Source of the DNA: a virus
Lineage: Duplodnaviria; Heunggongvirae; Uroviricota; Caudoviricetes
DNA: 5,173 nucleotides
IMG/VR virus record: IMGVR_UViG_2740892270_000017
Strand: one strand, 5' to 3'
Shown piece by piece: positions 18 to 5,020 of the stretch. The stretch's first letter is position 1, and every line of letters starts with the position of its first letter. The position numbers were made by a program, and so were the translations under genes. A model generated the notes under the pieces. It worked only from the letters and a program-made list of their open reading frames with translations. It ran no database searches and was not told the DNA's origin.

Positions 18-675
18 TTACTTTAAACACTGCTCGGTTATGTATTGCTGAGCACCTTCAAGTTGGGCCTGCATCATTACCAGTCGTTCCCGGAGGGTGA
101 AATAATCCCGTTCAGCGGTGTCTGCCAGTCGGGGGGAGGCTGCATTATCCACGCCGGAGGCGGTGGTGGCTTCACGCACTGACTGACAGACTGCTTTGAT
201 GTGCAACCGACGACGACCAGCGGCAACATCATCACGCAGAGCATCATTTTCAGCTTTCGCATCAGCTAACTCCTTCGTGTATTTTGCATCGAGCGCAGCA
301 ACATCACGCTGACGCATCTGCATGTCAGTAATGGTTGCGTTCGCCAGCTTCAGTTCTCTTGCGTTTTTGTCGCGCTGCTCTTTGTAGGTAATGGCGTTAT
401 CACGGTAATGATTAACAGCCCANNNNNNNNNNNNNNNNNNNNNNNNNNNNNNNNNNNNNNNNNNNNNNNNNNNNNNNNNNNNNNNNNNNNNNNNNNNNNN
501 NNNNNNNNNNNNNNNNNNNNNNNNNNNNNNNNNNNNNNNNNNNNNNNNNNNNNNNNNNNNNNTCGCGCTGCTCTTTGTAGGCGATGGCGTTATCACGGTA
601 ATGATTAACAGCCCACGACAGGCAGACGATGATGCAAATAACCAGAGCGGAGATAATCGCGGTTACCCTGCTCAT
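18..675 (-). CDS. Rz: Rz i-spanin (inner-membrane spanin subunit); reading frame interrupted by N run 423-562 flanked by a 53-bp direct repeat
   Basis: Minus-strand translation 563..675 gives [37 protein letters not shown] (N-terminal TM anchor) and 18..422 gives [29 protein letters not shown]...TEQCLK; both match the lambda/21 Rz protein as I recall it. ATG at 675..673 overlaps the endolysin stop TGA 674..672 (ATGA). Stop TAA at 20..18. The two visible pieces are offset by 193 nt (out of frame), so the exact structure across the gap is unresolved. Confidence 0.8.
77..262 (-). CDS. Rz1: Rz1 o-spanin (outer-membrane lipoprotein spanin subunit), embedded in the +1 frame of Rz
   Basis: 61-aa [64 protein letters not shown]: signal peptide with lipobox VVGC, Thr at +2, proline-rich mature part, wholly inside Rz in another frame. 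This is the classic lambda-type Rz/Rz1 architecture. Confidence 0.85.
370..615. repeat. 53-bp direct repeat (370-422 and 563-615, 2 mismatches) flanking N run 423-562 inside Rz
   Basis: tcgcgctgctctttgtagGTAatggcgttatcacggtaatgattaacagccca (370-422) versus tcgcgctgctctttgtagGCGatggcgttatcacggtaatgattaacagccca (563-615). Both copies encode the [11 protein letters not shown](T/A)YKEQR segment of Rz. Confidence 0.8.
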
Positions 676-1384: not shown

Positions 1385-1486
1385 AGCCTCACCTCCGCAC
1401 GGAACGGATGGCATAGTTATTATGTGTAGGCTTTCAGACACATCAATCAGAGCCTTAATTGATATATATGCTGGAGACGATGCAAT

Positions 1487-1510
1487 ATAAAAAGCTCGCC
1501 GTAGCGAGCT
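1487..1510 (-). terminator. Rho-independent terminator (minus strand) upstream of the holin; candidate tR'-like late terminator
   Basis: Plus 1493-1499 agctcgc pairs with 1504-1510 gcgagct (7-bp stem, loop cgta). On the minus strand the stem is followed immediately by TTTTTATATT (1492..1483). It lies about 105 nt upstream of the S start. Confidence 0.6.
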
Positions 1511-1635: not shown

Positions 1636-2031
1636 CTAACCTCGCATGTCAAAGCCAGATTTCTGAAAATCTCTGTAGACTTCCGGATTGTTGAAGGCCG
1701 GAAATTTGGCTTTATGAGCTGCGGACTTTATCGCTTCGCAATAGGCTTTATCACCGTTACTGGTAGATATTTTTAACGCCGTGCCATCCTGAGAGAATTC
1801 CATATGCAACCTGCATTTTTTCCCTTTCCAGTTATGCGGCTCATCAAGTTTGGCATTAATTGCAGCTCTGATTCCCCGCGCTTGCGCCCCCCATTCATCC
1901 TGATCATCCCAGCGTCCTGAACTGCAACTACCTGTAGCAGTAGTTTTGTGGCAATCTGAAGGGTGTAAAGGTGTGCATCCCGCAACAAAACCGACCCAAA
2001 AAGTCAACATAACGATTTTCTTTAATCCCAC
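1636..2031 (-). CDS. Lipoprotein with divergent TolA C-terminal (domain III)-like domain; paralog of 2182..2610
   Basis: 131-aa ORF, GTG start at 2031..2029 preceded by SD GAGGAG with 6-nt spacing. Signal peptide MGLKKIVMLTFWVGFVAGC with lipobox VAGC, Thr at +2. C-terminal part ...GKKCRLHMEFSQDGTALKISTSNGDKAYCEAIKSAAHKAKFPAFNNPEVYRDFQKSGFD aligns by eye with the TolA-III-like domain of the neighbouring gene (GK.C.L, GD..C, PEVY.F). Stop TAG 1638..1636. Confidence 0.75.
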   Translation of the reverse strand: MGLKKIVMLTFWVGFVAGCTPLHPSDCHKTTATGSCSSGRWDDQDEWGAQARGIRAAINAKLDEPHNWKGKKCRLHMEFSQDGTALKISTSNGDKAYCEAIKSAAHKAKFPAFNNPEVYRDFQKSGFDMRG

Positions 2032-2181
2032 TTCTTGCTCCTCAATCCATTAAAATCTCAGCAATAGTAGTTGTTACGTCCGCCACTGGCTCAGAGCTGA
2101 CTATCCGCTAAATTTAGCTCAGTGCCGTAGCTGTGTCAGAACAAACCTAAGCCGAAACCGTTTATTACAAAACAATAAATA

Positions 2182-2610
2182 TCAGGGTTTAAAATCCAGC
2201 ACCCCATTTTGAAATACTTTATATACTTCCGGCGAAGGGGGGGCAGGTATATCAGCATTCTTTATCGCATTCATCGCTTCACGACATAAATCGAGGTCTC
2301 CACTTTCTCTTTTAACCTCCAGTAGAAGGCCATTCGGGGCCATATGCATTCTCAGTGTACACTCTTTTCCTGAATACTTACTCGCATCCCCGAACTGTTT
2401 TTCGATGGCGCTCTTGATTTGATGGGCATACAGACGGATATCCTCACTAACATCAGAAGTACGTTCAGATGAACTCACATACTGTGTCTCTATTGCTTTA
2501 TCGGAGTAATATGATGTACGGTCATGATAATTTGTCGATACAGCATCAGTGCACCCGATAATAATCCCACTAATAATCAACGTAAGAATTGATGCGCTAC
2601 GAAAACCCAT
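2182..2610 (-). CDS. Lipoprotein with TolA C-terminal (domain III)-like domain; predicted outer-membrane-anchored periplasmic protein
   Basis: 142-aa ORF, ATG 2610..2608 with SD GAGG upstream. Signal peptide MGFRSASILTLIISGIIIGC with lipobox IIGC, Thr at +2. The C-terminal ~85 aa, YAHQIKSAIEKQFGDASKYSGKECTLRMHMAPNGLLLEVKRESGDLDLCREAMNAIKNADIPAPPSPEVYKVFQNGVLDFKP, closely resemble the C-terminus of E. coli TolA as I recall it (...AGQIKSAIESKFYDASSYAGKTCTLRIKLAPDGMLLDIKPEGGDPALCQAALAAAKLAKIPKPPSQAVYEVFKNAPLDFKP), including the conserved Cys pair. Stop TGA 2184..2182. Confidence 0.85.
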   Translation of the reverse strand: MGFRSASILTLIISGIIIGCTDAVSTNYHDRTSYYSDKAIETQYVSSSERTSDVSEDIRLYAHQIKSAIEKQFGDASKYSGKECTLRMHMAPNGLLLEVKRESGDLDLCREAMNAIKNADIPAPPSPEVYKVFQNGVLDFKP

Positions 2611-2639
2611 TTTTCCTCACATATGTCATATAGTAAAGG

Positions 2640-2669
2640 ATTATATATACCGTTGTTTTGGACGCTCAA
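2640..2669 (-). promoter_or_regulatory. Sigma70-like promoter for the TolA-like lipoprotein gene at 2182..2610
   Basis: Minus strand: -35 TTGAGC (2669..2664), 18-nt spacer, -10 TATAAT (2645..2640) inside GTATATATAAT, about 30 nt upstream of the ATG at 2610. Sequence match only. Confidence 0.45.
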
Positions 2670-2774
2670 ACAGCGAATCAGATCAAATAAAACGCACATT
2701 TGTTAACATTTACACAAAGTCTGCGTGGGATATTCTGAAAGAATATCCATAATGTGGAGAGAATCTATTGAAGT

Positions 2775-2877
2775 GCATGGTGCCGGGTGCCTCCCGGTGA
2801 ACAAAATGTTCGTGATACCTGTCGGCGACAGAAAAGGTTAATGGTATCACCCCACCGCACAGGGGGATTCACCATGC
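2775..2877. repeat. Highly structured imperfect palindromic element, ERIC/IRU-like intergenic repeat (tentative)
   Basis: An outer 8-bp stem, gcatggtg (2775-2782) with caccatgc (2870-2877), encloses four hairpins: ccggg/cccgg (2783-2797), gaaca/tgttc (2799-2811), gtgatacc/ggtatcac (2812-2850) and cccc/gggg (2850-2866). The right end GGGGATTCAC (2863-2872) matches the terminal motif of enterobacterial ERIC repeats as I recall it, and GGGGTGA is nearby on the minus strand. Confidence 0.3.
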
Positions 2878-3200
2878 AGGAGTTTTCTTAGCAAACTCAC
2901 TGCGCGCCCGGCAACTCCCAACCACATAAAATGCGGAGTTTGTGGCATTTATGCATATAACTCGCAGGAATTATCTTAAAAAACTGATGTCGATCCGGAT
3001 TAAAAAGAAGCAGGTCATCATCAGATGACTGGAAAAAAGGAAAACAAAAAATACTCATCATACAGTTTTGATTGCAGGGATGAGCCTGCTATGCACAATA
3101 TGCAGAATATAAGCAAGATAAAAATATGCAGGCATATTATTTCGGATCTTGTTATTAACACAACCTTTTTAATAATCATTTGGCATACAATAAACCAGCC

Positions 3201-3227
3201 CAAAAAGAACCGCCTAAACAGGCGGTT
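3201..3227 (-). terminator. Rho-independent terminator-like hairpin (minus-strand orientation)
   Basis: Plus 3208-3214 aaccgcc pairs with 3221-3227 ggcggtt (7-bp stem, 6-nt loop). On the minus strand the stem is followed by CTTTTTGGG (3207..3199). Confidence 0.5.
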
Positions 3228-3481
3228 GGTCAATACAAAGGATGCTTCGTCTTTATTATAGTAATCTGAGGCGTCGGGTGTCTTGTATCAGACAACATAT
3301 TGTCCCGCTAAACAGCGAATTACAAACCACCCTGCAATGATCTCTCATCTCATTTTATATGAGTTGACGACATCAGGATAACGCATCATCAGCCCCTGCC
3401 AAGAAATATCAAAACTCCCGCCAGCAATGTGTTATCACAATATTGTAAAAAAAACACAGCACCGAAACTATAACTGGTCTC

Positions 3482-3490
3482 TGTTATAAT
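3482..3490 (+). promoter_or_regulatory. Extended -10 promoter element TGtTATAAT on the plus strand (convergent with the Q-like gene)
   Basis: Perfect TGnTATAAT at 3482-3490 with an A8 tract 28-35 nt upstream (3447-3454, UP-like). There is no good -35, which extended -10 promoters do not require. The element sits in the 22-bp spacer of a 9-bp inverted repeat, aactggtct (3471-3479) with agaccagtt (3502-3510). Confidence 0.3.
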
Positions 3491-3496
3491 TTGGAG

Positions 3497-3575
3497 CAGA
3501 AAGACCAGTTGCCCAACTAGCAGCATTCTCCCCTGCTTTCCTGACGTAAAAAAACCGCATTAAGCGGTTTTTTTA
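3497..3575 (+). ncRNA. Candidate ~80-nt small RNA from the extended -10 promoter to the bidirectional terminator; antisense to the region just downstream of the Q-like gene
   Basis: Predicted start about 7 nt downstream of the -10 (around 3497); end at the T7 tract of the 3545-3577 hairpin. No ORF with an RBS lies in between. Prediction only. Confidence 0.2.
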
Positions 3576-3577
3576 CG
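3545..3577. terminator. Strong bidirectional intrinsic terminator (perfect 14-bp palindrome) about 80 nt downstream of the Q-like gene
   Basis: cgtaaaaaaaccgc (3545-3558), loop attaa, gcggtttttttacg (3564-3577). The GC core ccgc/gcgg is flanked by A7 on one side and T7 on the other, giving a U-tract after the stem on either strand. Confidence 0.65.
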
Positions 3578-3654
3578 ATGTCCATGTCTGCAATCCGCCT
3601 CGCGATACAGCTTTGCGAAGCATAGCAAAATTGAAGCAGTTTATACGTAAGAAA

Positions 3655-3994
3655 TCAAGCCATTTTCTCAGCAAATGATTCACGCATGGGAATATATAGG
3701 GCATACTCAGCAACAGCTAACCAATTAGCAATCCGTTTTTCGCATGTGCTAAAACACCACTCTGGGTGTGCATCATTTAGCAATTCAGCCATTTTGCGCT
3801 TAGTCATCCCCCGCCCTTCATAGCGTTGCCGGAGAATGCAAATCAATCCTGGATGCTCTGCCAGCACCTCACTTATGACTCGATCAATACATAACGCCTC
3901 TGCATCAGTACAATGCGCCAGCCAGCTCTTTTGCTTGCCGTTGATCATCTCTCGCAAAAACGCTTCCAGCTCAGCTTTCTCTATTCCCGCTTTT
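3655..3994 (-). CDS. Q-like late-gene regulator (putative antiterminator), C-terminal 113 aa visible; N-terminus lies in N run 3995-4215
   Basis: Visible translation ...KAGIEKAELEAFLREMINGKQKSWLAHCTDAEALCIDRVISEVLAEHPGLICILRQRYEGRGMTKRKMAELLNDAHPEWCFSTCEKRIANWLAVAEYALYIPMRESFAEKMA, stop TGA 3657..3655. It is the last gene after the nin-type genes and before the moron/lysis region, which is the Q position in lambdoid phages, and has an HTH-like segment (GMTKRKMAELLN). The assignment rests on synteny; I cannot confirm the family from memory. Confidence 0.45.
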
Positions 3995-4215
3995 NNNNNN
4001 NNNNNNNNNNNNNNNNNNNNNNNNNNNNNNNNNNNNNNNNNNNNNNNNNNNNNNNNNNNNNNNNNNNNNNNNNNNNNNNNNNNNNNNNNNNNNNNNNNNN
4101 NNNNNNNNNNNNNNNNNNNNNNNNNNNNNNNNNNNNNNNNNNNNNNNNNNNNNNNNNNNNNNNNNNNNNNNNNNNNNNNNNNNNNNNNNNNNNNNNNNNN
4201 NNNNNNNNNNNNNNN

Positions 4216-4451: not shown

Positions 4452-5020
4452 NNNNNNNNNNNNNNNNNNNNNNNNNNNNNNNNNNNNNNNNNNNNNNNNN
4501 NNNNNNNNNNNNNNNNNNNNNNNNNNNNNNNNNNNNNNNNNNNNNNNNNNNNNNNNNNNNNNNNNNNNNNNNNNNNNNNNNNNNNNNNNNNNNNNNNNNN
4601 NNNNNNNNNNNNNNNNNNNNNNNNNNNNNNNNNNNNNNNNNNNNNNNNNNNNNNNNNNNNNNNNNNNNNNNNCGCCGTATCCCGGGTTCTACGAGTCGCA
4701 ACGGTGTTAAGGTATTGCTCTGCGGCATCACTCAGGGCTGGCGTGTGTTCCCGACCAACTGATTCGCACAGGTAATCAACGAAACCAGACAGCAGTTCTC
4801 GTTCGCGAGGCGTGATCGCCCCACCGACCGGAGTCCAGTAATCGAATCCCAGTTGCAGGAGTTTGAAAAAACGCTTGTGGAATGCGTAGTTACGCACACG
4901 CTTAAAGTCTGCGTGTATCCACTCACCTATTTTGATTTGATGCAGAAAATCGCAACTCTCCGGCGTCGCCGGGAGAAGTAAACCAGAAGAGGTTTGTTTG
5001 ACCAGTTGTATATGCGCCAT
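4442..5020 (-). CDS. Lambdoid nin-region protein (possibly YbcN/DUF1367-like); N-terminal 116 aa visible (4673..5020), remainder masked
   Basis: ATG at 5020..5018; visible translation MAHIQLVKQTSSGLLLPATPESCDFLHQIKIGEWIHADFKRVRNYAFHKRFFKLLQLGFDYWTPVGGAITPRERELLSGFVDYLCESVGREHTPALSDAAEQYLNTVATRRTRDTA. If the N run has its true length, the frame ends at TAA 4444..4442 (192 aa), overlapping the expected YbcO-like start. Family assignment is from position next to the YbcO-like gene, not verified. Confidence 0.55.
   Translation of the reverse strand: MAHIQLVKQTSSGLLLPATPESCDFLHQIKIGEWIHADFKRVRNYAFHKRFFKLLQLGFDYWTPVGGAITPRERELLSGFVDYLCESVGREHTPALSDAAEQYLNTVATRRTRDTAXXXXXXXXXXXXXXXXXXXXXXXXXXXXXXXXXXXXXXXXXXXXXXXXXXXXXXXXXXXXXXXXXXXXXXXXXXFT

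What the first reader, a model, noticed from the sequence alone, without database searches (positions are those of the whole stretch)
1636..2031. Second, divergent TolA-III-like lipoprotein paralog immediately downstream (tandem pair)
Seen in sequence: a 131-aa lipoprotein (lipobox VAGC, Thr at +2) whose C-terminal half keeps the TolA-III-like skeleton of the upstream gene (GKKC.L.M, G..L.I, GD...C, PEVY.F) but is much more diverged, and whose mature N-terminus carries an extra Cys-rich acidic segment (CTPLHPSDCHKTTATGSCSSGRWDDQDEW). GTG start with a strong SD (GAGGAG, 6-nt spacing). Inference: tandem diverged paralogs suggest either two specificities (different ligands or competitors) or a two-component arrangement; divergence of this kind is common in genes under host-parasite arms-race selection.
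Basis: partly seen in the sequence, partly recalled or inferred. Interest (0 to 1): 0.65.

Follow-up and report, generated by a model that had tools for sequence, protein, structure and literature searches.

The report
Conserved TolA-domain lipoprotein on a prophage
The second gene is a real, intact outer-membrane lipoprotein carrying a copy of the TolA tip domain that colicins and filamentous phages use to enter cells; it belongs to an old, strongly conserved enterobacterial family of unknown function and is not a fast-diverging local duplicate of its neighbour.

Summary
Observation confirmed. Window 1636-2031 (minus strand) encodes a 131-aa lipoprotein. It has a GTG start, a GAGGAG Shine-Dalgarno site 6 nt upstream, lipobox VAGC and Thr at +2.

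Residues 46-130 form a TolA domain III:
- Pfam PF06519: 54.6 bits (cut-off 25).
- AlphaFold2 pLDDT above 90.
- Foldseek to E. coli TolAIII (3QDP): rmsd 1.1 Å, TM 0.90.

- Gene B (the finding) is 28% identical to the upstream gene A (2182-2610) and 31% to E. coli TolAIII. Gene A is 59% identical to TolAIII. They belong to separate clades, so they are not a local duplication.
- Gene B is under strong purifying selection. dN/dS is 0.04-0.10, including the Cys-rich linker; gene A's is 0.17-0.30.
- Its orthologues are solitary chromosomal genes in about 40 Enterobacterales species. They also sit directly after the nikB relaxase on IncI-type plasmids and pO157.
- A-type genes occur without B in other prophages.

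In E. coli prophages, A and B travel as one near-clonal cassette with a promoter-like site and a terminator. It is present in about 780 of 5,426 complete genomes.

No function is published. My best inference (about 0.45) is an outer-membrane-tethered TolA-III surrogate. It would capture TolA ligands such as bacteriocin translocation domains, phage pIII and the TolB N-terminus.

The parts
1636..2031 (-). Gene B CDS: 131 aa, GTG start at 2029-2031, TAG stop at 1636-1638. Stand-alone TolA-III lipoprotein.
   Evidence: Identical or near-identical sequence occurs in about 784 complete E. coli records.
2038..2043 (-). Shine-Dalgarno site GAGGAG, 6 nt upstream of the GTG start.
   Evidence: Sequence. 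The same (G/A)TG position and SD-like site are conserved in the IncI1, pO157, Citrobacter and Enterobacter orthologues.
1978..2031 (-). Lipoprotein signal peptide, residues 1-18 (MGLKKIVMLTFWVGFVAG). The lipobox VAGC ends at Cys19 (codon 1975-1977).
   Evidence: Sequence. In 120 family members the lipobox is mostly VAG/AAG/TAG + C, and the +2 residue is A, S, T, G or V, never Asp.
1897..1977 (-). Mature N-terminal segment, residues 19-45: lipid Cys19, then Cys27 and Cys36, then the acidic/aromatic motif SGRWDDQDEW. Predicted flexible.
   Evidence: C27 and C36 are invariant in alignment A2, which reaches down to 30-42% identity. The Cys-x7-Cys-x8-Cys motif is present in 119 of 120 relatives. 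dN is 0.03-0.08 against dS of at least 0.76. pLDDT is about 50 in both models.
1639..1896 (-). TolA domain III fold, residues 46-131, including the Cys73/Cys98 pair and the C-terminal beta-strand GFDMRG.
   Evidence: Pfam PF06519 54.6 bits. phmmer to PDB TolAIII chains, E = 5e-9. pLDDT above 90. Foldseek to 3QDP: E = 1.9e-8, rmsd 1.1 Å, TM-target 0.90.
1485..1510 (-). Intrinsic-terminator-like hairpin AGCTCGC-TACG-GCGAGCT followed by TTTTTATATT, between gene B and the holin gene.
   Evidence: It lies inside the cassette core that is at least 97% conserved across prophages.
2032..2181 (-). A-B intergenic spacer (150 nt) with a weak promoter-like site (2139-2111).
   Evidence: Homology with a prophage that has A but not B stops at 2181.
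2182..2610 (-). Gene A: 142-aa TolA-III lipoprotein (lipobox IIGC), 59% identical to E. coli TolAIII. Cassette partner of gene B.
2640..2669 (-). Sigma-70 promoter-like site (TTGAGC-18-TATAAT) just upstream of gene A. Candidate cassette promoter.
   Evidence: This is a consensus match only.

Best explanation
Shown: gene B encodes an intact, selectively maintained lipoprotein. It has a lipoprotein signal peptide, no Asp at +2, and therefore should be sorted by Lol to the inner face of the outer membrane. After the lipid-modified Cys comes a 27-residue flexible linker with two further invariant Cys and a conserved acidic/aromatic motif. A TolA domain III fold follows. The gene was not made by duplicating its neighbour. 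It belongs to an old, slowly evolving enterobacterial family that is normally a solitary chromosomal gene. That family has been captured at least twice by mobile elements: behind the nikB relaxase of IncI-type plasmids, and next to gene A in an E. coli lambdoid prophage cassette flanked by a promoter-like site and a terminator-like hairpin.

Inferred: the protein acts as an outer-membrane-tethered surrogate of the TolA tip. Its exposed C-terminal beta-strand would capture, by beta-strand addition, ligands that normally dock on TolA-III. These are the translocation domains of Tol-dependent bacteriocins, the pIII N1 domain of filamentous phages and, more weakly, the TolB N-terminus. Capture would happen right where they emerge under the outer membrane, making the carrier cell tolerant to them. 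In the prophage, genes A and B would be two such traps with different ligand ranges.

The identity and architecture part is about 0.95 likely. The decoy mechanism is about 0.45 likely.
For: Fold and homology.

Start codon and lipobox.

Purifying selection: dN/dS is 0.04-0.10 for the mature protein, linker included. C27, C36, C73 and C98 are invariant.

Separate lineage: B-A 28%, B-TolAIII 31%, A-TolAIII 59%, and the neighbour-joining tree places the B clade apart.

Distribution:
- 42 species-representative genomes of Enterobacter, Citrobacter, Klebsiella, Raoultella, Leclercia, Lelliottia, Kluyvera, Pantoea, Serratia, Erwinia and others. No gene A, holin or lysozyme lies nearby, except in the Shigella flexneri locus L018, which carries this same prophage cassette.
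- The same non-mobile neighbourhood in four Enterobacter kobei strains and in Citrobacter.
- The plasmid copy lies 68 nt after nikB.

Cassette: the core 1442-2610 is at least 97% identical in 80 IMG/VR prophage loci with differing flanks. A promoter-like site and a terminator bracket it.

Mechanistic plausibility:
- The TolA strand that binds TolB, colicin N and g3p (D418 and K420; abolished by proline substitutions; PMC4339652) is conservatively kept in B: PLDFK becomes GFDMR (alignment).
- The same paper gives KD of about 1 µM for ColN and about 40 µM for TolB. A decoy could therefore intercept toxins with limited disturbance of Tol-Pal.
- Phage IF1 uses TolA-III as coreceptor (PDB 2X9A, listed), and IncI plasmids carry the B-type gene.
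- From my own knowledge (Levengood-Freyermuth, Click and Webster 1993; Click and Webster 1997): periplasmic over-production of free TolAIII makes E. coli tolerant to group A colicins and Ff phage.
Against: There is no experimental datum for this protein or any stand-alone TolA-III lipoprotein in the searchable literature.

The PADLOC defence models do not hit it.

Gene B is only 31% identical to E. coli TolAIII, so binding of E. coli-specific ligands is not assured.

The chromosomal, syntenic, slowly evolving copies in many genera look more like a housekeeping envelope factor than a defence gene, which usually turns over quickly.

The role of the strongly conserved linker motif is not explained by a simple decoy model.

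Promoter and terminator calls are consensus matches only.
Confidence: 0.5

Rival explanations
1. Housekeeping modulator of the cell envelope. The B family would be a normal outer-membrane lipoprotein of many Enterobacterales that binds an endogenous partner (the TolB N-terminus, Pal, CpoB or an unknown protein) through its TolA-III fold and conserved linker motif. It would tune Tol-Pal activity or outer-membrane tethering. The prophage and plasmid copies would simply confer that physiology and have no role against colicins or phages.
For: Solitary, syntenic chromosomal copies occur in about 40 species, with identity roughly tracking taxonomy. Purifying selection is very strong, including in the disordered linker, which is typical of a fixed endogenous partner. 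PADLOC gives no hit.
Against: E. coli K-12 and most E. coli lack the gene, so it is dispensable. Capture by two kinds of mobile element, in the accessory-gene slot and behind a relaxase, suggests a portable benefit of the kind usually linked to competition or infection.
Confidence: 0.25
2. Lysis or release accessory. The pair would be transcribed with the late operon just before the holin gene. By sequestering TolB or competing with TolA, it would loosen the outer membrane at the end of the lytic cycle. This would help lysis, vesicle formation or release of progeny.
For: The pair lies between the Q-like antiterminator and the holin, lysozyme and Rz genes. A TolA-annotated gene of prophage CP-933O in EDL933 rose 32-fold on ciprofloxacin induction (PMC11125564). 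TolA point mutants that lose TolB binding destabilise the outer membrane (PMC4339652).
Against: The same B-type gene is kept in non-phage chromosomal and plasmid settings, where outer-membrane weakening would be harmful. A terminator separates it from the holin gene, and a promoter-like site precedes gene A, which is the layout of a lysogen-expressed accessory gene. The cassette is found with different lysis cassettes.
Confidence: 0.15
3. Obligate two-component pair. A and B would form a heterodimer or act sequentially, so that neither works alone.
For: In E. coli prophages the two are almost always together: 782 versus 784 records at 99% identity or more, and the core is conserved in 80 of 80 IMG/VR loci.
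Against: B is alone on about 515 plasmid records and in about 40 other species. A-type genes are alone in other prophages, with a breakpoint exactly at the stop codon of gene A. The prophage module is near-clonal, so its co-occurrence counts amount to essentially one evolutionary event.
Confidence: 0.07
4. Untranslated or decaying remnant of a tolA fragment.
For: NCBI's PGAP annotation pipeline labels the neighbouring gene A a tolA pseudogene in some records and starts gene B at Met8. A few frameshifted variants of gene B exist in databases (P0067, P0081, P0088).
Against: dN/dS is 0.04-0.10. The ORF is intact in about 784 genomes and in a 696-member protein cluster. The SD site and start codon are conserved across genera. 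The lipobox and four Cys are invariant.
Confidence: 0.03

Closest known systems
E. coli TolA domain III (PDB 3QDP, 1S62, 1TOL, 2X9A; Pfam PF06519)
   Same: Same fold: rmsd 1.1 Å over 84 columns, TM-target 0.90. The two Cys align with the only two Cys of TolAIII. The C-terminal ligand-binding beta-strand is conservatively kept.
   Different: There is no inner-membrane anchor (domain I) and no long helical domain II, so it cannot couple to the TolQR motor. It scores below the full-length TolA cut-offs (53.7 vs 213; 47.2 vs 59.45). It is anchored to the outer membrane by lipid instead. Identity is only 31%. It has an extra Cys-x8-Cys linker.
Upstream gene A of this window (2182-2610) and its E. 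coli prophage relatives
   Same: Same architecture: lipobox, linker and TolA-III domain. Same PHROG 5772. Same cassette.
   Different: 28% identity and a different clade. The A family is restricted to E. coli and Shigella (46 proteins) and evolves 3-6 times faster at the protein level (dN/dS 0.17-0.30). Its linker has no extra Cys. Its domain is acidic (pI 6.1), whereas gene B's is basic (pI 9.4).
Phage-encoded outer-membrane lipoproteins that block entry (T5 Llp, phi80/N15 Cor). Named from my own knowledge.
   Same: Works-like analogy: a small outer-membrane lipoprotein carried by a (pro)phage and proposed to stop incoming agents at the envelope.
   Different: There is no sequence or fold relationship. 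Llp and Cor inactivate the surface receptor FhuA. Here the proposed action is mimicry of a periplasmic coreceptor. Not tested.
Filamentous-phage pIII-mediated immunity and colicin tolerance (pIII occupying TolA). Named from my own knowledge (Boeke, Model and Zinder 1982).
   Same: Same interaction surface (TolA-III with pIII N1) and the same expected outcome: tolerance to Tol-dependent colicins and to superinfection.
   Different: The logic is the mirror image. There the ligand saturates the host receptor. Here an extra copy of the receptor domain would soak up the ligand.
Stand-alone TolA-III lipoproteins in general (short representatives found)
   Same: 72 cluster representatives of 100-170 aa are related to gene B, and 53 of them have a lipobox by a simple pattern. 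This is the same architecture.
   Different: These are uncharacterised. Only the B clade carries the Cys-x7-Cys-x8-Cys motif (11 representatives).

Membership tests
Pfam PF06519 (TolA C-terminal domain) | HMM score above the gathering threshold | tested here: met
   54.6 bits against a cut-off of 25, residues 44-125.
Pfam PF06519 (TolA C-terminal domain) | The alpha/beta fold of TolAIII | tested here: met
   AF2 elements H46-61, E72-79, E85-93, H95-107, H116-122, E124-130 with pLDDT above 90. Foldseek to 3QDP, 2X9A, 3QDR and 1TOL: E = 2e-8 to 3e-7, rmsd 1.1-1.2 Å.
Pfam PF06519 (TolA C-terminal domain) | The conserved Cys pair of the domain | tested here: met
   C73 and C98 are invariant and align with the two Cys of E. 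coli TolAIII. That they form a disulfide is inferred, not shown.
Full-length TolA (NCBIfam NF007065 / TIGR02794 equivalogs) | Whole-protein score above the curated cut-off, implying domains I and II plus tolQRAB-pal operon context | tested here: not met
   53.7 bits against 213, and 47.2 bits against 59.45, matching only the last ~80 of 362-387 model positions. No tolQ, tolR or tolB lies nearby. The PGAP name 'TolA' for these genes is a domain-level label.
Bacterial lipoprotein (Lgt/LspA/Lnt substrate, Lol-sorted to the outer membrane) | Basic n-region, hydrophobic h-region, lipobox [LVI][ASTVI][GAS]C, and no Asp at +2 | tested here: met
   MGLKK-IVMLTFWVGF-VAG-C-T. Across the family the lipobox is VAG/AAG/TAG + C, and +2 is A (105), S (7), T (6), G (1) or V (1).
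Bacterial lipoprotein (Lgt/LspA/Lnt substrate, Lol-sorted to the outer membrane) | Actual lipidation and outer-membrane localisation | not testable with these tools
   Needs globomycin sensitivity, palmitate labelling and membrane fractionation.
Phage 'moron' (independently transcribed accessory cassette inside a late operon) | Own promoter upstream, terminator downstream, and presence or absence between otherwise related phages | tested here: inconclusive
   A promoter-like site at 2669-2640 and a terminator-like hairpin at 1510-1493 are consensus matches only. The cassette core is conserved across different flanks, and gene B is absent from the related prophage L006. No transcript data.
Colicin TolB box (DG[ST]GWSSE, with a distal Trp in ColE9) | Core motif containing the essential Asp, Ser/Thr, Trp and Glu | tested here: not met
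   Gene B's linker reads CSSGRWDDQDEWG. Only the Trp and the acidic character match. The essential Asp and the Glu spacing of GASDGSGWSSENNPW / KGDGTGWSSERG (PMC2821528) are absent. This is a resemblance only.
Known anti-phage defence systems (PADLOC-DB v2) | Match to any defence-protein model | tested here: not met
   0 families at E ≤ 1 for both A and B.

The most novel reading that the evidence does not exclude
Stand-alone TolA-III lipoproteins would be a widespread, unrecognised class of 'coreceptor decoy' immunity. Tethered under the outer membrane, they would intercept the translocation domains of Tol-dependent bacteriocins and the pIII proteins of filamentous phages before these reach TolA. 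The B type sits directly behind the relaxase of IncI-type conjugative plasmids, whose pilus is the primary receptor of IF1-type filamentous phages that use TolA-III as coreceptor. It would therefore be a plasmid self-protection device against pilus-specific phages, and the prophage A+B cassette would be a two-specificity version. A further speculative layer is that the invariant disulfide-looped, Trp-rich acidic linker is a second binding motif (for example for TolB), which would make gene B a bivalent trap.
Probability: 0.3. Interest if true: 0.75.

Novelty: new variant of a known kind. Interest (0 to 1): 0.45.

Why it matters
TolA-III is the shared periplasmic gateway for group A colicins, klebicins and cloacins, and for filamentous phages. 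A naturally occurring, mobile, outer-membrane-tethered copy of that domain has no published function. Yet it is present in about 23% of complete E. coli genomes (1,269 of 5,426: chromosomal prophages in about 780, and plasmids including pO157) and in many other Enterobacterales.

If it is a decoy, it would be a new entry-level immunity mechanism. That would bear on bacteriocin- and phage-based therapeutics and on plasmid ecology. If instead it modulates Tol-Pal, it would be a new accessory factor of a central envelope machine. Both readings can be tested directly with standard colicin and M13/IF1 assays.

The work also corrects annotation:
- Gene A is wrongly flagged as a tolA pseudogene in some records.
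- Gene B is started 7 codons too late.

Tried and rejected
Literature. Seven full-text searches found no paper on prophage-borne, plasmid-borne or stand-alone TolA-III lipoproteins. One search was wasted on prefix matches. I also read a 2025 evolutionary survey of TolA/TonB.

Defence models. PADLOC gave no hit.

Viral structures. BFVD gave nothing at E ≤ 0.001. Only one of 50,697 deposited phage genomes carries the genes.

Structure of the Cys-rich linker. A second AF2 run with a deeper B-clade alignment did not raise confidence; pLDDT stayed near 50. The Cys27-Cys36 disulfide therefore remains an inference from invariance.

TolB-box idea for SGRWDDQDEW. I checked it against the published motifs and rejected it as a membership claim.

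Tandem duplication. Rejected by the identity matrix and tree and by separability of the two genes.

Arms-race divergence. Rejected for gene B by dN/dS. Gene A is faster but still below 1.

Pseudogene. Rejected.

Not attempted:
- An A-B complex model and complexes with TolB, pIII or colicin peptides.
- Checking whether the CP-933O gene of EDL933 is A-type.
Full report
WHAT IS THERE

The window is the late region of a lambdoid prophage, read on the minus strand. The gene order is: a ninB-like gene, DUF1364, a DUF1133 Q-like gene (ending at 3655), about 1 kb without long ORFs, gene A (2182-2610), gene B (1636-2031, the finding), holin, lysozyme, and Rz/Rz1.

Gene B is a 131-codon ORF.
- It starts with GTG at 2029-2031 and ends with TAG at 1636-1638.
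- GAGGAG lies at 2038-2043, six bases upstream of the start.

All factual elements of the observation hold. The only slip is that the last shared motif is PEVY..F, not PEVY.F.

IS THE C-TERMINAL PART TolA-III?

Yes, by four independent routes.
- Pfam PF06519 scores 54.6 bits against a gathering threshold of 25. Gene A scores 82.6.
- phmmer against all PDB chains finds only TolA domain III entries at the top (1S62, 3QDP, 2X9A, 1TOL; E = 5e-9 to 2e-8). The alignment runs from residue 50 to 129 without gaps.
- Two AlphaFold2 models give pLDDT above 90 for residues 46-130, with the TolAIII order of helices and strands.
- Foldseek places the model on E. coli TolAIII: 3QDP at E = 1.9e-8, rmsd 1.1 Å, TM-score 0.90 normalised to the target, 32% identity. 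More distant TolA and TonB C-terminal domains follow.

Gene B is not a TolA orthologue. It matches only the last ~80 positions of the full-length TolA models and scores far below their cut-offs. It has no membrane anchor domain, no helical domain II and no tol operon context.

START CODON AND LIPOPROTEIN NATURE

RefSeq starts the protein at Met8 (124 aa, WP_001348108). Aligning the DNA of orthologues shows three things.
- It is always preceded by a GAGG-type site at the same distance.
- Met8 is Ile in pO157.

The GTG start also supplies the basic n-region (MGLKK) that a signal peptide needs.

In 120 relatives the lipobox is VAG/AAG/TAG + C. The +2 residue is Ala, Ser, Thr, Gly or Val, and never Asp. 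Under the established E. coli sorting rule this predicts transfer by Lol to the outer membrane. Lipidation and localisation themselves are inferred.

THE EXTRA N-TERMINAL SEGMENT

After the lipid Cys19 come Cys27 and Cys36, then SGRWDDQDEW.
- The pattern Cys-x7-Cys-x8-Cys is present in 119 of 120 close relatives. It is also present in representatives down to 30-42% identity.
- C27, C36, C73 and C98 are invariant in that alignment.
- The segment is modelled with low confidence, pLDDT about 50, in both runs.
- Yet its dN is only 0.03-0.08 while dS is 0.76 or saturated.

A conserved but non-globular segment is what a short binding motif, stapled by a Cys27-Cys36 disulfide, would look like. That reading is inference.

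I compared the segment with the colicin TolB box (GASDGSGWSSENNPW in ColE9, KGDGTGWSSERG in ColA; PMC2821528). Only the Trp-rich acidic character is shared and the essential Asp and Glu are not. I do not call it a TolB box.

IS IT A DIVERGING TANDEM DUPLICATE?

No.

Identity and tree. Over the domain, B is 28% identical to A and 31% to E. coli TolAIII, whereas A is 59% identical to TolAIII. A neighbour-joining tree puts the B clade apart from the clade holding A, TolA proper and many other short TolA-III proteins.

Family breadth.
- The B family is broad and tight. There are 370 database clusters, and the best 120 are all 78-99% identical, from Escherichia, Citrobacter, Enterobacter, Klebsiella, Raoultella and Serratia.
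- It is present in 42 species-representative genomes, also including Leclercia, Lelliottia, Kluyvera, Pluralibacter, Buttiauxella, Yokenella, Pantoea, Rouxiella and Erwinia.
- The A family has only 46 clusters. All named ones are E. coli or Shigella, at 65-100% identity.

Selection. dN/dS for mature B is 0.04-0.10. For mature A it is 0.17-0.30. The gene that looks 'more diverged' is thus the older and slower lineage, and the arms-race reading does not fit it.

WHERE ELSE DOES IT LIVE, AND ARE THE TWO ALWAYS TOGETHER?

In complete E. coli genomes:
- Gene B is found in 1,269 of 5,426. 784 records are at 99% identity or more on chromosomes. 515 records are at 80-90%, on plasmids.
- Gene A is found in 898 genomes. 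782 are at 99% or more. About 115 are more diverged, almost all chromosomal.
- The 1.45-kb pair is complete in 771 genomes.

The plasmid copies of gene B are solitary. They lie 68 nt after the nikB relaxase on IncI1/B/O plasmids. On pO157 and other F-type plasmids they lie next to a truncated nikB.

In Enterobacter kobei (four strains, identical neighbourhood of metabolic genes) and in Citrobacter amalonaticus, the gene is a solitary chromosomal gene. In the 42 species representatives there is no A-type gene, holin or lysozyme nearby. The one exception is the Shigella flexneri locus L018, which carries the same prophage cassette.

Conversely, A-type genes sit alone in the Q-to-holin slot of other prophages, after a tRNA cluster. 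In strain M6, homology to the window stops exactly one base after the stop codon of gene A.

So the two genes are separable. Inside E. coli prophages, however, they travel as one unit. In 80 IMG/VR prophage loci the core from 1442 to 2610 is at least 97% identical, while the holin, lysozyme, upstream region and Q gene differ or are replaced. Phage mEp460_ev081 carries the same core next to a different lysis cassette.

Because this unit is near-clonal, its co-occurrence counts essentially one event. It is not evidence of functional dependence.

CASSETTE ANATOMY

- A sigma-70-like site (TTGAGC-18-TATAAT, 2669-2640) precedes gene A.
- A weaker one (2139-2111) precedes gene B.
- A GC-rich hairpin followed by a T-run (1510-1485) follows gene B, before the holin gene.

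This layout suggests an independently expressed accessory cassette ('moron') that Q-modified polymerase would also read through. These are consensus matches and no transcript data are available.

A related hint comes from EDL933. A TolA-annotated gene of prophage CP-933O rose 32-fold after ciprofloxacin (PMC11125564). I did not verify which type that gene is.

HOW IT MOST LIKELY WORKS

Established facts:
- TolB, colicin N and phage g3p-N1 all bind TolAIII by adding a strand to its C-terminal beta-strand.
- Single proline substitutions at D418 or K420 abolish all three interactions.
- ColN binds at about 1 µM and TolB at about 40 µM (PMC4339652).
- Colicin A adds a strand at another edge of the domain (PDB 3QDR; PMC3365938 abstract).
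- Phage IF1 uses TolAIII as coreceptor (PDB 2X9A).

In gene B the corresponding strand is retained with conservative changes: TolA PLDFK becomes B GFDMR, with D418 kept as Asp and K420 as Arg. It is modelled as strand 124-130 with pLDDT of about 90.

From my own knowledge, free TolAIII over-produced in the periplasm makes E. coli tolerant to group A colicins and to Ff phage.

Putting these together, I propose that gene B is a lipid-tethered TolA-III surrogate placed at the inner face of the outer membrane. That is exactly where colicin translocation domains and phage pIII first appear. It would capture them before they reach TolA. The weak TolB affinity of the fold would limit collateral damage to Tol-Pal. 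The location behind the relaxase of IncI-type plasmids, whose pili attract IF1-type phages, fits this idea well, but it is circumstantial.

I put the mechanism at about 0.45. The architecture and evolutionary statements are near-certain.

RIVALS

- Housekeeping envelope modulator (0.25). Favoured by the syntenic chromosomal copies and the very low dN/dS.
- Late-expressed outer-membrane-loosening aid to lysis (0.15). Favoured by position. Disfavoured by the non-phage homes of the gene, the terminator before the holin gene, and the varied lysis cassettes.
- Obligate A-B pair (0.07). Disfavoured by separability.
- Untranslated remnant (0.03). Disfavoured by every conservation measure.

COMPARISON WITH WHAT IS KNOWN, AND NOVELTY

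The protein is annotated in RefSeq as a 'cell envelope integrity TolA C-terminal domain-containing protein' and falls in PHROG 5772 (unknown function). The sequence itself is therefore not new.

The architecture has no characterised member that I could find. Seven literature searches and a 2025 survey of TolA/TonB evolution were negative. PADLOC was negative. There was no viral structural match in BFVD.

An exhaustive profile-free search shows the architecture is common. Of 72 short cluster representatives, 53 have a lipobox by a simple pattern.

I therefore rate it a new variant of a known kind: a known domain in a new topological setting, with an unassigned and testable role.

Interest is moderate at 0.45. 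The specific claim of the finding (a diverging tandem paralog) is largely deflated. The underlying family is a credible lead to an undescribed entry-blocking or Tol-modulating mechanism.

Noticed in passing
window 2721-2907 (minus strand); also L005 4494-7376: There is a full-length Rfam match to the sRNA family STnc100 (RF02076): 86.6 bits against a gathering score of 47, E = 3e-18. It lies between the Q-like gene and gene A. Pieces of the same element recur four to five times in the late region of another prophage (L005).
   Followed up: partly
window 2237-2243 (inside gene A, C7 on the coding strand): A 7-base G/C homopolymer sits in the codons for PAPPSP. Several database variants of gene A (P0129-P0137, P0156; one seen in NCBI assemblies) are frameshifted exactly here, giving ...PAPLRRKYIKYF... 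This could be sequencing error or slipped-strand on/off switching of gene A.
   Followed up: no
L001 9187-9993 (= window 1636-2442): RefSeq/PGAP annotation is inconsistent. Gene A is flagged as a 'tolA pseudogene, missing N-terminus' in many E. coli records, although it is an intact 142-aa lipoprotein gene. Gene B is started at Met8, 7 codons after the conserved GTG/ATG start.
   Followed up: yes
L003 5001-5432, L007 4964-5395, L016, L017: The B-type gene lies 68 nt downstream of the nikB relaxase on IncI1/B/O conjugative plasmids. It lies next to a truncated nikB on pO157 and other F-type plasmids. About 515 E. coli plasmid records have it at about 88% nucleotide identity.
   Followed up: partly
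window 370-422 and 563-615, flanking the N-run 423-562: A 53-base direct repeat (2 mismatches) flanks the first masked stretch, inside the Rz gene. In the matching genome (L001) this sequence is present once, so the window is not colinear with that genome here. Other N-runs are at 3995-4215 and 4452-4672.
   Followed up: partly
window 2611-3654: About 1 kb between the Q-like gene and gene A has no long ORF. It is AT-rich (GC 0.36-0.46). It carries terminator-like hairpins at 3227-3208 and around 3550-3575, right after the Q gene stop. In related prophages this slot holds a tRNA cluster (Ile, Arg, Thr, Gly); here no tRNA is found.
   Followed up: no
literature: PMC11125564 (EDL933 prophage CP-933O, EDL933_2012): A prophage gene described as TolA-type was 32-fold up-regulated by ciprofloxacin in EHEC EDL933. 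The paper calls it a tail fibre protein. It is likely a relative of gene A read from the late operon on induction. Its identity was not verified here.
   Followed up: no
L019 and L020 (8-kb contigs in MAGs labelled Lachnospiraceae and Treponemataceae): These contigs carry nikB (99%) plus the B-type gene (89%). They are almost certainly enterobacterial plasmid fragments mis-binned into unrelated metagenome-assembled genomes.
   Followed up: partly
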